Shown: positions 1 to 64,000 of the stretch, in pieces | Layout of the letters: every line of letters starts with the position of its first letter | Numbering within the stretch: position 1 is the stretch's first letter | From: Octopus vulgaris | Lineage: Eukaryota | Assembly: GCA_951406725.2 (NCBI GenBank) | Contig: OX597827.1 | Location: forward strand, 74,152,001 to 74,216,000 | DNA length: 64,000 nucleotides | Reading direction: 5' to 3' | Program-made: the position numbers

Positions 1-3000
1 GTGCTGGCCCTTTGTTCTTTGTTACCGCTTTAATTTCAGTTTGCATCCATAGAGTCCAGTTTTACTGCCCTTCCGATATACTATTGCTGATGTTTGATAT
101 TACAATTTTTTATAACATTTAGGAGATTAATATGGGGACACAACTCTACTAACAAAATCTGATAACTAACAACCTGAAATTCTCCGCCTAATATAAAGTT
201 AGTATTAACGATCAAGCCATCAACTTTCAATTTGTACAGTGTCTCTAGAAAGAAACTGCTGGAATTATTACAATTTGGACAATAAATTAGGAACAATGAT
301 AGTTATTGATAACTTTAAATATTGTGAAAACAAAGCATTTATAGACTTACCCCACTTGGATCAAAGAATGCCACGATATTGAGATAACCTTTGTTGATCA
401 GGCATTTCAGGAAATATACTGTTTTACCTTCTTCTGGTATTTCCGTTACAAGAAATTCATTTTCACATGAAGGCCCCTATATACATAAAAAAAACGAAAG
501 ATAATTATAAAACAAAGAAACCAAGCAAAGAAAAGGGAGAACTATTATCGCCTCATGTTGTATTATGTCTTACTGCAACAAAGTACCTTTTTTATGTGAG
601 AGACGTCTTCCCAAAATCTCAAGTGTAGCACTAATATACGTACACACATACGATACAGTGTGATACAAATACACACAAGCTTACACACACACATGCATAT
701 ATATAACTAGCAGTATCGCCCGGCGTTGCTCGGGTTTGTAAGGGAAATAACTATATAAGCATTTTTAGAGAGTTATAGCAAAGAATAGCAAAAAATGCAT
801 TAAAAATGGAATAAAAAATTATGGTAATTTTTTTTTTAAATCGTTGACTCATCGTAGACATTTTTAGAGAGTTACCTCCCTTATATAATAGCGAAAAAAT
901 GCATTAAAATGGAAAAAAATGGTGGTAAAATTTTTTTAAATCGTAGACTCATGTAGACGCTTTCTTAGCCATTTCTGTTTTGGTGTCTTCAAGCCATGAA
1001 GTCGTTGTTCTAAAAGGACGCTGGTCTCCTTGACAACGCATTACGACGTTGATTTCCTTACACTCCCTTCCCCACAGGTGCAGGTGTGAGCGTGGACGCC
1101 AACTCCGCCGCCATCGACACACGAAAAAATATGCATTAAAATGGAATAAAAACTTATGTTAAATTATTTTTAAAATCGTAGACTCATCGTAGACGCGCGC
1201 TAATACTCAGACGGGCTCGATATGAATCACGACTATAAGATACCCGAATTTGGTTAAACTGGACCGCGAAATGTGGGAGTAGTTAGGAATCTAAATCGAA
1301 GGGGACAGACACTCACACAACTACAGTTTTATATATAGAGATTAATTAATCAAAGGACATACTATATATGTCTACCTGCTGGAAATGACAGTCAAACTCA
1401 TATTTGAATCGCCATGATACACTGATAATAACTACAGAGATCAACCGCCCGAAGGCAAACGGGCTAAGACAATCTTTCAGCATAATTCAAGTATTTGGAC
1501 TCACGTGGACCGGTTTCTGGACTGGCAATATAGTCTCACCTCCCTCAGCACGCGTTACCATGAAGGAGAGCCCCAACCCGTCACGTTGAAGTCTACGCTG
1601 CAACTGAATCGTTTTGCGCCGAATCATGGCAGCCACCATTGTGAAAATAATTTCAACACAGAACAAATAATTCAAGAGAAAATATTTGCGAAGATATCAT
1701 TGACTATTATTATCTAGTGTAACATTTGGTTGATTTATGTTGCTAAAAATAGTGTATTTTAGCGATTTAAATAAGAGATTTGACAGTTACATCCAGCAGG
1801 TATCCATACTTAGTATGTCCTTTGATTAATTTTTATCCTTCGCTATTTAATGACTTTTGGGGGCTTGCAATTGCCTATATTATTAATTGTGTTGTCATTT
1901 TGAAATTGTTACACTATACAATAATAGAGTTAATAACTTCGCAAATATTTTCTTCTGAATTATTTGCTCGTAATATATATATATATATATATATATATAT
2001 ATATATATATATATATATATATATATATATATATATATATATATATATATATATATATATATATATATATATATATATATATATATATATATATATATAT
2101 ATATATATATTCAAAGAAACAGATTCGTTCGTAATGTGCATGGATAAAGGACCCGTGTTTGTAACAGGAATATGTATATAAATTACACATATACGACGGG
2201 CAAAGTGATGACAGCATAGAAGCGTTTCATTTAGGCACTGATATGACCATAACTTATCACCTGAATCAACGGAGATCTGACATATCTCTATATTTGAAAT
2301 TGTTCTGCTCTCAGAAAATAATATTAAAGCGAAACAACTGATGATTTAGGTATTAAAGATTGTTGGAATATTTTATGACGATGCCTTTAGATGGAAAGAG
2401 TATAGGTTAATGAGGGAGATATTTGAGAGATTATGTTAAACTCAGTAATGCTGTAAACGATAGGAGTGAATGAATCTCTATTTTTGTTACCTATATTCAT
2501 TTATTGTAGCCAGGAACTATTTTCTTCAAGTAAAATAATATCAAAAAAAGAAGAATTCGAAATGAAGGTATGTAATTTTATTTAACTATTTTCGGATTTA
2601 CCATCATACAGAAGTAAAAATATCAATAAACGAGGGAGAAGAAAAGTTTAACTTATGCAGAAGAGAAGCGAGTGTTGAAAGTTTAAAAGAAAAATAATAA
2701 TTTACTTACATCGATGAATACCCCGTTCATATTGAATTTCGCTAACTCATCTTCCATTTATGAAAAAAACAAACCAAAGTAAAACGATTATTTTCTAGAA
2801 AATTAACATAGAGCATGATAAATACCTGTATTATTGAATTTCATAAAATAGATTTTTAGAATTATTATGCATATAAGGTCCAGTTTCAAATAGAACAGAG
2901 GTATGCATGCTGATCGTCACTATACGTGTAACATGTTAAAACTTATTCAGTTATAAAGTATATTCTTAATGTATTAAGCTTTGCTGAAAATGTTTTAGCC

Positions 3001-63000: not shown

Positions 63001-64000
63001 AAGATTTCTAATATATTTCCGCATAAAAATTAATATCTCGGCGGTAATAGTAGAAAGTAATCGAGTTAATGAGACAGAGTAAGTCCCATAGATTTTCCAA
63101 ACAGAATATTAAATAATGATCATACCAGATCATATAAGGTTGATAATGTTAATATTCAAAGGTTATTGCAGATATGGATATTTCTAGAAACTGATATAAG
63201 AAAGATTTACAATGAAATCTAATAATCCCTCAGTAATATTATTGAGCAGGAGATTAAAAGTTTATCTAACCCGTGCACCTCTGGTAACGAGAGGACCAGT
63301 AATATCCTATGATGCAACCTTCCTCACAGCGTCCCGTGACTTGATCACATTTAGAGCCTTCACAGTGTTCACAACGTTCCATACACATATCTCCATAGAA
63401 TCCAGGAACACATTCTGCAATACAAAAATGATTGAAAAAGAAAATATCACGGTTGCTGTATGTATTTCACGAGCGTTAGCACATAAATATTCAGTTGTAA
63501 TGATATTCTATAGAATGAATATGTTTTAAATTGTTAGGGCTTGAAAGAAGAAATAAGGAGTAATCTTTTAGTGACCTCAAAAATGAACATAACCATGCAC
63601 AAGTCGAATGTTTGAAAACACATAATCTTAACGAATCGTGTAAAATGAAATAAGATGAGTGGATGGAAGTTGGCGAGAGTGTAATGGTATATAAAATTAT
63701 ATATATTTAGTTTATAAAGTACACCATTGAAATATTTGTTATATCAATCTTAATTAGCTTTATCAACACTCCAGTCAACAGCAGTGGAAAGTTTTATGGT
63801 CAAAAGAATGACTTTGTTCATTGGATATAGAGTTCTTGACTGTAGGTAAGCAGTATGCAAGTATATTTGACAAGTGTTTGCTCAGCCTGTAATAGTGAAT
63901 TGAAATTGTATCACTAAAGCGTTACTATTTAGGAAAACTGTGGCGGAGGAGGGACAAAGAGGTGGGGAAGCAGAAAGATTTCAAAACCGAACCAACCGTC

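What the first reader, a model, noticed from the sequence alone, without database searches (positions are those of the whole stretch)
351..63414. EGF-array receptor phosphatase: scavenger/MEGF10-type ectodomain of apparently variable length joined to an atypical PTP
Seen: at least 9 symmetric (phase 1-1) 8-Cys EGF-like exons splice in frame to a TM exon, a tyrosine-rich juxtamembrane region and D1/D2 PTP domains. Known: vertebrate RPTP ectodomains use Ig, FN3, MAM or carbonic anhydrase modules, while this EGF repeat type typifies MEGF10/Draper/CED-1, SREC and Tie. EGF-PTP models are common in mollusc annotations but, to my knowledge, poorly characterised. Inference: repeated exon duplication, skippable cassettes and an altered substrate pocket fit a fast-evolving recognition (immune or phagocytic) receptor family.
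Basis: partly seen in the sequence, partly recalled or inferred. Interest (0 to 1): 0.72.

Follow-up and report, generated by a model that had tools for sequence, protein, structure and literature searches.

The report
Octopus EGF-repeat receptor tyrosine phosphatase gene
The window holds most of one octopus gene for a membrane receptor that joins a chain of EGF-like repeats to a tyrosine phosphatase with an unusual substrate pocket; it belongs to a large mollusc gene family that is annotated in databases but has not been studied.

Summary
The observation largely holds. On the minus strand, 23 exons with AG/GT sites chain in one frame. They comprise 9 phase 1-1 eight-Cys EGF exons, a TM exon, two juxtamembrane exons with 6 Tyr, 8 D1 exons including a 25-nt microexon, and the first 3 D2 exons.

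Caveats:
- EGF7 carries an in-frame TGA.
- EGF2/3 and EGF4/5 are identical copies within a 2.06-kb tandem unit present three times.
- D2 and the 5' end run off the window. In homologues the 5' end encodes a discoidin domain.

The EGF profile matches SCARF1/SREC-I (E 1e-10). D1 keeps HCSAGVGRTG, the WPD Asp and the Q-loop Gln residues, but reads KNLH where 114 of 118 aligned D1 domains read KNR[YF].

The same EGF-TM-PTP layout occurs in 72 of 73 listed non-octopus mollusc homologues, so the architecture is family-wide and already in annotations. I found no paper describing it.

An immune or phagocytic role remains untested. The EGF duplicates diverge at about the intron rate, so faster evolution is not shown. 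I rate this a real, moderately interesting new variant of receptor PTP. Whether this locus makes one intact transcript is open.

The parts
63271..63414 (-). EGF1 exon, first EGF after the discoidin domain in homologues; 8 Cys, phase 1-1
   Evidence: Best identity to any protein in the collection is 85%.
56574..56702 (-). EGF2 exon (type A), phase 1-1; identical to EGF4
56178..56312 (-). EGF3 exon (type B), phase 1-1; identical to EGF5
   Evidence: Pfam EGF_STAB1-2 at E 0.0037, below the curated cut-off.
54512..54640 (-). EGF4 exon (type A)
54116..54250 (-). EGF5 exon (type B)
52459..52587 (-). EGF6 exon (type A), older copy of the repeat unit
52068..52199 (-). EGF7 exon (type B) with in-frame TGA at 52105-52107 and one codon missing; splice sites intact
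43377..43496 (-). EGF8 exon (type A), three codons shorter than the other type A exons
43001..43135 (-). EGF9 exon (type B), last before the TM exon; 45/45 identical to repeats in P0004 and P0005
51748..57023 (.). Tandem array of three copies of a unit of about 2.06 kb, each carrying one A+B EGF exon pair. Copies 2 and 3 are identical over 1627 bp (53235-54861 equals 55297-56923). In the gapped blastn alignments, copy 1 is 86.9% identical to copy 3 over 1174 columns, and the HSP spanning copies 1-2 against copies 2-3 is 95.1% over 3236 columns.
31944..32037 (-). Transmembrane exon, phase 1 in and phase 2 out
   Evidence: It is 32/33 identical to P0019, where it follows an EGF repeat.
27185..27270 (-). 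Juxtamembrane exon 1 (basic stretch, 1 Tyr)
24816..24955 (-). Juxtamembrane exon 2 (5 Tyr, including YDDI and YIN)
23464..23551 (-). D1 exon a: pTyr-recognition loop reading KNLH instead of KNRY
22469..22542 (-). D1 exon b (DYINANF motif)
21344..21368 (-). D1 exon c, 25-nt microexon
19644..19741 (-). D1 exon d
16240..16362 (-). D1 exon e
8776..8954 (-). D1 exon f: WPD loop (WPDHDIP) and first half of the P-loop (VVVHC)
7706..7841 (-). D1 exon g: second half of the P-loop (SAGVGRTG)
5814..5963 (-). D1 exon h: Q-loop (IQLEF) and the D1-D2 linker
5555..5606 (-). D2 exon a
2710..2750 (-). D2 exon b
351..476 (-). D2 exon c, last in the window; the donor GT follows and the rest of D2 lies beyond position 1

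Best explanation
The window holds most of one paralogue of a tandemly expanded Octopus gene family. The family encodes type I receptor protein tyrosine phosphatases with this layout: N-terminal Cys-rich region, discoidin (F5/8 type C) domain, a variable array of SREC/MEGF-type 8-Cys EGF repeats, TM helix, Tyr-bearing juxtamembrane segment, PTP D1, and a degenerate D2.

Shown:
- The exon anatomy.
- The EGF type.
- A catalytically equipped D1 with a remodelled pTyr-recognition loop (KNLH).
- Growth of the EGF array by duplication of a two-exon (A+B) unit.
- The family-wide architecture across Mollusca.

Inferred:
- The EGF and PTP exons form one transcript, with the TGA-bearing EGF7 skipped or the allele defective.
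- The ectodomain is a multivalent recognition module whose length varies between paralogues, and possibly between individuals.
- Ligand engagement controls a cytoplasmic module in which D1 has weak or shifted activity towards phosphotyrosine. Chemistry is intact, but the aromatic residue and the Arg of KNRY are lost. D1 may therefore act partly as a substrate trap or scaffold.
- D2 is a non-catalytic docking or regulatory domain.
For: Gene structure:
- 23 exons on one strand have AG/GT sites, and their phases chain over 2600 nt.
- P0002 (annotated Octopus vulgaris) matches JM1 and all eleven D1/D2 exons 100%, JM2 43/47, and only the last 8 residues of the TM exon.
- P0019 (O. vulgaris) and P0009 (unnamed source) each join a type B EGF repeat directly to this TM type. 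EGF9 matches 41/45 and 37/45; TM matches 32/33 and 26/33.
- No other cellular gene was found among 71 further ORFs; only transposon fragments turned up.

EGF type and family:
- The EGF profile against PDB gives SCARF1 at 1.1e-10.
- 72 of 73 non-octopus mollusc hits combine at least 3 EGF-profile hits with a CX5R loop.
- All 8 Octopus D1 domains form one clade (support 100), and P0002 plus P0009 form a KNLH subclade (support 95).

Phosphatase domains:
- P0002 against PDB gives RPTP alpha at 3.3e-98, with the P-loop, WPD Asp and Q-loop Gln aligned.
- The KNLH clade keeps an open frame in P0009, which is 85% identical to P0002 over D1.
- The AlphaFold model of P0009 (pLDDT 80.3) superposes on tandem D1-D2 structures over about 580 columns, TMt 0.80, E 6e-43.
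- All ten top language-model neighbours of the D2 region are Y_phosphatase clusters.
- The role of the KNRY Tyr is taken from passages read in PMC7320164.
Against: - EGF7 has an in-frame TGA.
- No protein in the collection contains the window's EGF1 at more than 85% identity, so the EGF array of this locus appears unannotated.
- P0002 starts at a Met inside the TM exon and has no EGF repeats.
- P0019's EGF repeats are only 69-91% identical to the window's, while its cytoplasmic exons are 96-100% identical. P0019 may therefore be chimeric, or a different paralogue.
- No expression data were available.
- No sequence-level PDB match to the D2 region was seen. The printed alignments and the best stretches of all 60 listed hits fall within D1.
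- Reduced catalytic activity of a KNLH D1 is inference only.
Confidence: 0.6

Rival explanations
1. The locus is a decaying paralogue (unitary or polymorphic pseudogene) within the tandem cluster. It looks like a receptor PTP gene but no longer makes a full-length receptor.
For: - In-frame TGA and a codon loss in EGF7.
- A 3-codon deletion in EGF8.
- Loss of the KNRY Arg and Tyr.
- The EGF array is absent from annotated proteins.
- dN/dS among EGF duplicates is 0.5-1.0, and exon divergence equals intron divergence.
Against: - All 14 TM and cytoplasmic exons and 8 of 9 EGF exons are open with canonical splice sites.
- All 8 Cys are kept in every EGF exon.
- KNLH is shared with P0009, which is 85% identical over D1 and has a complete open frame through D2. 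KNLH is therefore a conserved lineage feature, not decay.
- The disabled exon is symmetric and can be skipped without changing frame.
Confidence: 0.2
2. There are two transcription units: an EGF-only, draper-like product from the 5' part, and a short TM-PTP product starting near the TM exon.
For: - P0002 begins inside the TM exon.
- EGF-only Octopus models exist: P0015, P0016 and P0018.
- An 11-kb intron with transposon debris separates EGF9 from the TM exon.
Against: - P0015 ends in read-through of an EGF-exon donor, and P0016 stops inside a repeat, so the EGF-only models look truncated.
- EGF9 has a good GT donor in phase 1 that matches the TM acceptor.
- P0019, P0009 and 72 mollusc homologues have EGF, TM and PTP in one chain.
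Confidence: 0.1
3. The identical EGF2/3 and EGF4/5 pair is an assembly artefact. The true gene has 7 EGF exons in this stretch and no very recent duplication.
For: 1627 bp of perfect identity at an offset of 2062 bp is what a mis-expanded tandem repeat in an assembly looks like.
Against: - A third, older copy proves that the unit does duplicate. It is 86.9% identical to copy 3 over 1174 gapped columns, and mismatches copy 2 at about 11-12% of ungapped aligned positions.
- The two copies differ at their edges: 10 mismatches near 53228-53234 and 54862-54912.
Confidence: 0.25

Closest known systems
Annotated Octopus models. P0002 is 'receptor-type tyrosine-protein phosphatase mu-like' [O. vulgaris]. 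P0019 and P0020 are 'RPTP T-like' [O. vulgaris]. P0005 is 'MEGF6' [O. sinensis]. Names are; accession numbers could not be fetched.
   Same: - P0002 is identical to the window in JM1 and in all eleven D1/D2 exons. JM2 matches 43/47, and only the last 8 residues of the TM exon are present.
- P0019 and P0020 share the TM exon (32/33 and 30/33) and KNLH.
- P0005 shares D1f to D2c.
   Different: - None contains the window's EGF1-8 at high identity (69-88%).
- P0002 lacks the ectodomain.
- P0019 lacks the three catalytic D1 exons.
- P0005 looks like a chimera of two paralogues.
Mollusc discoidin-EGF-PTP proteins, annotated as MEGF6/10/11 or RPTP alpha/epsilon/mu/kappa/T-like, in Haliotis, Crassostrea, Mytilus, Dreissena, Pomacea, Liolophura and others
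   Same: One chain holds an EGF array of the same profile (3-18 hits), a TM helix and a PTP D1, often with a discoidin domain.
   Different: - They are only 30-36% identical.
- Their D1 keeps KNR[YF].
- Octopus D1 domains form a separate long-branch clade.
Vertebrate RPTP alpha/epsilon (R4) and LAR/sigma (R2A) tandem phosphatase modules
   Same: These are the best sequence and fold matches for the cytoplasmic part: 6uzt at 3.3e-98 and 2fh7, 6kr4 and 6uzt with TMt 0.80. The P-loop is identical.
   Different: - The ectodomain is unrelated. As recalled, not tested here, vertebrate RPTPs use short glycosylated or Ig/FN3 ectodomains.
- The pTyr loop reads KNLH.
- The Q-loop reads QKRIQLEF.
- In Octopus homologues D2 lacks the P-loop Arg, and in the KNLH clade it also lacks the Cys.
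SCARF1/SREC-I, MEGF10/Draper/CED-1, Tie2 EGF modules
   Same: The same 8-Cys EGF repeat type: SCARF1 8hna at E 1.1e-10, Tie2 at about 0.05. NCBI names several homologues MEGF or draper.
   Different: - There is a phosphatase cytoplasmic domain rather than a non-enzymatic tail or a kinase.
- No EMI-domain hit appeared among the Pfam families listed for P0019 or P0007; they have a discoidin domain instead.
- There is no NPxY in the juxtamembrane exons.
PTPRU D1 and other variant-loop PTPs (PMC7320164, passages read)
   Same: A receptor PTP D1 with a non-canonical pTyr-recognition loop. That paper shows that putting the divergent PTPRU loop into PTPRK-D1 abolishes activity.
   Different: PTPRU also has WPE and a Thr in the P-loop. 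The octopus D1 keeps WPD and a canonical P-loop, so loss of activity is less certain.

Membership tests
Classical receptor-type PTP (Pfam PF00102, tandem D1-D2) | HC(X5)R P-loop with catalytic Cys and Arg | tested here: met
   VVVHC | SAGVGRTG is split across exons 8776-8954 and 7706-7841. Pfam Y_phosphatase hits at E 2e-9 and 6e-12 on those ORFs.
Classical receptor-type PTP (Pfam PF00102, tandem D1-D2) | WPD loop with the general-acid Asp | tested here: met
   The loop reads WPDHDIP. The G-to-D change after WPDH recurs in 12 of the 118 aligned D1 domains, in Octopus and other molluscs.
Classical receptor-type PTP (Pfam PF00102, tandem D1-D2) | pTyr-recognition loop KNRY with an aromatic residue | tested here: not met
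   The window, P0002, P0009, P0019 and P0020 read KNLH. One search tabulated 121 rows, of which three (P0103, P0117, P0121) are D2 domains. Of the 118 D1 rows, one (P0068) gave no readable motif. 115 of the other 117 carry an aromatic residue at the fourth position; the two exceptions are the KNLH rows P0002 and P0009. 114 read KNR[YF].
Classical receptor-type PTP (Pfam PF00102, tandem D1-D2) | Q-loop glutamines | tested here: met
   QKRIQLEF keeps both Gln residues. Thr is replaced by Lys and Tyr by Leu. This form is shared by the Octopus models, with one-residue variants in P0009 and P0011.
Classical receptor-type PTP (Pfam PF00102, tandem D1-D2) | Single TM helix between the ectodomain and D1 | tested here: met
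   A 24-residue hydrophobic stretch is followed by a basic run. The homologous segment in the P0009 model is helix 100-121.
Classical receptor-type PTP (Pfam PF00102, tandem D1-D2) | Second PTP-fold domain (D2) | tested here: inconclusive
   Only 3 D2 exons are in the window. For the homologue P0009, the model superposes on D1-D2 crystal structures and its feature neighbours are all PTP clusters. No sequence-level PDB match to the D2 region was seen, and the catalytic Cys and Arg are absent.
SREC / MEGF10 / Draper / CED-1 scavenger-phagocytic receptors | Array of 8-Cys MEGF-type EGF repeats | tested here: met
   A profile of 6 window exons against PDB gives SCARF1 at E 1.1e-10, with 5 scoring stretches plus one negligible one.
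SREC / MEGF10 / Draper / CED-1 scavenger-phagocytic receptors | N-terminal EMI domain (MEGF10/Draper/CED-1) | tested here: not met
   The N-terminus is outside the window. The homologues P0019 and P0007 show F5_F8_type_C and NedA-like domains, and no EMI-domain hit appears in their Pfam lists at E up to 0.001.
SREC / MEGF10 / Draper / CED-1 scavenger-phagocytic receptors | Non-enzymatic tail with NPxY and YxxL/ITAM engulfment motifs (features recalled, not from a call) | tested here: not met
   The tail is a PTP module. The juxtamembrane exons have no NPxY. They hold YDDI and YIN, but no canonical paired YxxL/I.
Mollusc discoidin-EGF-PTP family (known from annotation only) | EGF array, TM and PTP D1 in one polypeptide | tested here: inconclusive
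   The window's exons are collinear and phase-compatible, and homologues show the junction. No transcript of this locus was seen, and EGF7 has a stop codon.
Mollusc discoidin-EGF-PTP family (known from annotation only) | Discoidin / F5-8 type C domain before the EGF array | not testable with these tools
   It would lie upstream of position 64000. tblastn found no discoidin match in 63415-64000. No eukaryotic genome collection was available to fetch the flank.

The most novel reading that the evidence does not exclude
The KNLH clade is a recognition receptor in which the phosphatase has become a low-turnover pTyr trap or pseudo-enzyme. Its ectodomain length is copy-number polymorphic within the species, because the 2.06-kb A+B EGF unit is still duplicating (two copies identical over 1.6 kb). 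Disabled units are removed by skipping symmetric exons. On this reading molluscs have built a diversified, possibly immune, receptor repertoire on a tyrosine-phosphatase chassis, in parallel with kinase-based or ITAM-based repertoires elsewhere.
Probability: 0.15. Interest if true: 0.72.

Novelty: new variant of a known kind. Interest (0 to 1): 0.42.

Why it matters
As recalled, not tested here, vertebrate receptor PTPs are grouped by Ig, FN3, MAM or carbonic-anhydrase ectodomains. A large mollusc-wide family with discoidin plus SREC-type EGF ectodomains extends that scheme. I found no paper describing it in eight literature searches, although the library is limited to open-access text.

This octopus paralogue adds two testable points:
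- A D1 with intact catalytic chemistry but no KNRY Arg or Tyr. This is a natural experiment on the pTyr-recognition loop.
- An EGF array caught in the act of growing by duplication of two-exon units.

If the ectodomains bind microbial or self ligands, the family would be a candidate recognition-receptor repertoire in animals that lack adaptive immunity.

Tried and rejected
- **Excess exon divergence.** In the copy 1 against copy 2 alignment, exon mismatch is 32/270 and intron mismatch 99/877, Fisher p = 0.83. There is no excess. dN/dS is 0.86 for EGF4 against EGF6. For EGF5 against EGF7, dN is 0.158 with dS 0 on 43 codons. These samples are too small to call positive selection.
- **RNA structure at the EGF7 TGA.** I asked whether a duplex around the TGA might suggest A-to-I recoding. 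The MFE of 271 nt has z = +0.97 against shuffles, so nothing supports it.
- **Rfam.** No hits in the whole window at gathering threshold.
- **Pfam on single EGF exons.** Only a sub-threshold EGF_STAB1-2 hit. The profile search against PDB was more informative.
- **Other genes.** A Pfam scan of 71 further ORFs on both strands found only transposon domains.
- **The search of protein representatives.** P0007 exceeded the length limit. The job was not re-sent, because a library without names would add little.
- **Placement of the Octopus D1 clade.** Its position relative to other mollusc EGF-PTPs is unresolved. The branch is long and the tree is FastTree only, so I make no claim about a single origin.
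- **Literature.** Eight searches found no description of an EGF-ectodomain RPTP family.
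Full report
**Scope.** Every search with window sequence used a single exon or ORF. Scripts translated exons one at a time. No whole-protein search or fold of the window's own model was made. Annotated database proteins served as stand-ins, and this limits what can be said about this exact locus.

**What is in the window.** The DNA is AT-rich (30-39% GC) and has no N. A motif scan and ORF lists put all coding signal on the minus strand.
- One exon-sized query (the P-loop exon) found Octopus proteins that are 100% identical over it.
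- tblastn of these proteins against the window, followed by inspection of splice sites, defined 23 exons. All have AG acceptors and GT donors.
- Their lengths sum to 2600 nt. The phases chain without a break from a phase-1 start at 63414 to a phase-0 end at 351.
- The finding's coordinates (351-63414) are exactly the outer exon ends.

**EGF part.**
- There are nine exons, each one EGF-like repeat with eight Cys, and all are phase 1-1.
- They alternate between a shorter type A and a longer type B.
- A profile of six of the seven distinct exons hit SCARF1/SREC-I (8hna) at E 1.1e-10, an 'EGF-like domain-containing protein' (6u11) at 1.6e-10, and Tie2 at about 0.05. EGF7 was left out of the profile because of its stop codon.
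- Pfam on single exons gave only a sub-threshold Stabilin-EGF hit.

**Three qualifications on the EGF part.**
- *Disabled exon.* EGF7 (52068-52199) has an in-frame TGA at 52105-52107 and lacks one codon, although its splice sites are intact.
- *Identical copies.* EGF2/3 and EGF4/5 are nucleotide-identical. They lie in a unit of about 2.06 kb present three times between 51748 and 57023. The two younger copies are identical over 1627 bp. The oldest is 86.9% identical to copy 3 over 1174 gapped columns and mismatches copy 2 at about 11-12% of ungapped aligned positions. This is either a very recent duplication or an assembly expansion. The older third copy shows that the unit does duplicate.
- *Unannotated array.* No protein in the 5.8-billion-sequence collection contains EGF1 at more than 85% identity. 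Of the other EGF exons, only EGF9 has a perfect match, 45/45 in P0004 and P0005. The EGF array of this locus appears not to be annotated.

**TM and cytoplasmic part.**
- The TM exon (31944-32037) has a phase-1 acceptor compatible with every EGF donor. It encodes a 24-residue hydrophobic stretch followed by a basic run.
- Two juxtamembrane exons carry 6 Tyr in 74 whole codons, including YDDI and YIN.
- D1 is complete in eight exons, one of them a 25-nt microexon.
- The closest solved relatives of the stand-in P0002 are RPTP alpha, sigma, epsilon and LAR, with E 3e-98 to 3e-89.
- P0002 is identical to the window in JM1 and in all eleven D1/D2 exons. JM2 matches 43/47, and only the last 8 residues of the TM exon are present.
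- D1 keeps HCSAGVGRTG, the WPD Asp and both Q-loop Gln residues. Its pTyr-recognition loop reads KNLH.
- One search aligned 121 PTP domains, of which three (P0103, P0117, P0121) proved to be D2. Among the 118 D1 domains, 114 read KNR[YF], and only P0002 and P0009 lack an aromatic residue at the fourth position. One row gave no readable motif. P0019 and P0020 also read KNLH.
- The WPDHD variant recurs in other molluscs, so it is not special.
- Passages read in PMC7320164 state that the KNRY Tyr shapes the deep pocket and stacks on the substrate ring. They also state that placing the divergent PTPRU loop into PTPRK-D1 abolishes its activity.
- From memory, not from a call: LAR D2 is made active by restoring this Tyr together with the WPD Asp.
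- 'Atypical PTP' is therefore justified, but loss of activity remains an inference.

**D2.**
- Only three D2 exons (72 whole codons) lie in the window.
- In the homologues, D2 has no P-loop Arg (VHCSDKFHKSG). In the KNLH clade it also has no Cys (IHSSDKFHKSG in P0019).
- phmmer against PDB showed no match to the D2 region. The printed alignments and the best stretches of all 60 listed hits fall within D1.
- The AlphaFold model of P0009, built from a 32-sequence alignment, has mean pLDDT 80.3. It superposes on tandem D1-D2 crystal structures over about 580 columns, with TMt 0.80 and E 6e-43.
- All ten top language-model neighbours of the D2 region are PTP clusters, score 0.91, with 179 of 256 features shared.
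- D2 is a degenerate PTP-fold pseudo-domain.

**One gene or two?**
- *For one gene.*
  - The exons are collinear on one strand with compatible phases.
  - P0019 and P0009 show a type B EGF repeat joined directly to this TM type.
  - The whole family has this layout.
  - The EGF-only Octopus models look truncated. P0015 ends in donor read-through similar to the window's intron, and P0016 stops inside a repeat.
- *Against one gene.*
  - EGF7 carries a stop codon.
  - P0002 starts inside the TM exon.
  - An 11-kb intron filled with transposon fragments separates EGF9 from the TM exon.
  - I saw no transcript data.
- I put one gene at about 0.7.

**Family context.**
- A search with a full-length paralogue listed 120 proteins. 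The rows fall into three groups, assigned by me from the organism names in that list.
- Of the 73 named non-octopus mollusc proteins, 72 combine at least 3 hits to an HMM built from the window's EGF exons (range 3-18) with a CX5R loop. They come from chiton, abalones, oysters, mussels, scallops, Dreissena, Pomacea, Littorina, Elysia and planorbid snails.
- Of the 39 non-mollusc or unnamed rows, five reach 3-6 hits: three from amphioxus and two from a spider.
- Pfam finds F5/8 type C and NedA-like galactose-binding domains ahead of the EGF array in P0019 and P0007. The window stops before that part.
- Octopus models carry 2 to 17 EGF-profile hits, so ectodomain length does vary among paralogues. 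Several of these models are clearly fragmentary or chimeric.
- In a FastTree of 118 D1 domains, all 8 Octopus sequences form one clade (support 100), and P0002 plus P0009 form a KNLH subclade (support 95). The placement of the Octopus clade itself is unreliable because of its long branch.
- The expansion is lineage-specific, and KNLH is a conserved sub-lineage rather than a one-off lesion.

**Rate of evolution.**
- Between repeat copies 1 and 2, the exons differ at 12% of sites and the introns at 11.3% (p = 0.83).
- dN/dS is 0.86 for the A pair. For the B pair, dN is 0.158 with dS 0. Older pairs give 0.50-1.01.
- All Cys residues are kept.
- This fits relaxed or diversifying selection on the loops over a fixed scaffold. 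It does not show that the exons evolve faster than neutral.
- Against P0019, the positionally equivalent EGF8 and EGF9 are 30/40 and 41/45 identical. The TM, JM and D1 exons are 96-100% identical. That points to a faster ectodomain or to mosaic recombination, with the caveat that P0019 may be chimeric.

**Function.** No direct evidence was obtained.
- The only circumstantial hint is an oyster study (PMC13070813, passages read). [quoted passage not shown]
- I did not verify that those genes belong to this family.
- My working mechanism is as follows. A discoidin plus EGF ectodomain binds multivalent ligands. Clustering or ligand binding then controls a D1 that has intact chemistry but a remodelled pocket, giving weak or shifted activity or a trapping role. 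D2 and the juxtamembrane tyrosines serve as docking sites.

**Novelty.** The architecture is already in public annotations under misleading names such as MEGF6/10/11, draper and RPTP mu/T/alpha-like. Eight searches of the open-access library found no description of it. For the other papers listed by those searches I saw only the listing. I rate it a new variant of a known kind, of moderate interest.

**Left unchecked.**
- Accession numbers, because one search was unavailable.
- The gene's flanks and the paralogues' DNA, because no eukaryotic genome collection was offered.
- Any expression or population data.
- The closed metagenome and viral collections. They are unlikely to bear on this finding.

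Noticed in passing
window 28369-28767 (-), 41015-41512 (+), 50860-51504 (+), 34899-35447 (-), 57590-58480 (+): The introns hold transposon fragments. These are mariner/Mos1 (Transposase_1, HTH_48), a Tc1-like element (HTH_Tnp_Tc3_2, DDE_3) and two reverse-transcriptase remnants.
   Followed up: partly
window 8776-8954 versus 7706-7841: Identity to the KNRY-type paralogues P0003, P0004, P0006 and P0007 jumps sharply between adjacent exons. It is 52-56% in tblastn alignments over the 3' 47 codons of exon D1f (17-21 of 59 residues by local alignment). It is 45/45 in the next exon, D1g, and 45/50 in D1h. This suggests gene conversion or mosaic duplication among the tandem paralogues.
   Followed up: partly
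database proteins P0005, P0001, P0020, P0015 compared with the window: Several annotated Octopus models look chimeric or truncated.
- P0005 and P0001 join exons of another paralogue to window-type D1f-D1h exons.
- P0020 ends in the same intron read-through peptide that the window encodes after exon D1e.
- P0015 ends in read-through of a type B EGF donor.
   Followed up: partly
database protein P0019 compared with window 16240-16362, 8776-8954, 7706-7841: P0019 jumps from exon D1d directly to D1h. It therefore lacks the WPD loop and the P-loop. This could be a catalytic-exon-skipping isoform, a paralogue without these exons, or a model error.
   Followed up: no
window 42023-42115 (+): Residues 5-35 of the O. 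vulgaris model P0003 match this plus-strand stretch at 100%. The stretch lies inside the EGF9-TM intron on the opposite strand to the gene. It is probably a repeat-derived spurious first exon in that model.
   Followed up: no
window 44471-44789 and about 38900-40100: There is an (ATAC)n array of about 80 copies. A stretch of about 1.1 kb translates as Cys/Val-rich low complexity and coincides with the strongest GC skew in the window, -0.26.
   Followed up: no
database proteins P0100, P0102 (spider) and P0081, P0088, P0090 (amphioxus): These non-mollusc receptor PTPs also score 3-6 hits with the EGF HMM built from the window. EGF-like modules in RPTP ectodomains are therefore not confined to molluscs.
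   Followed up: no
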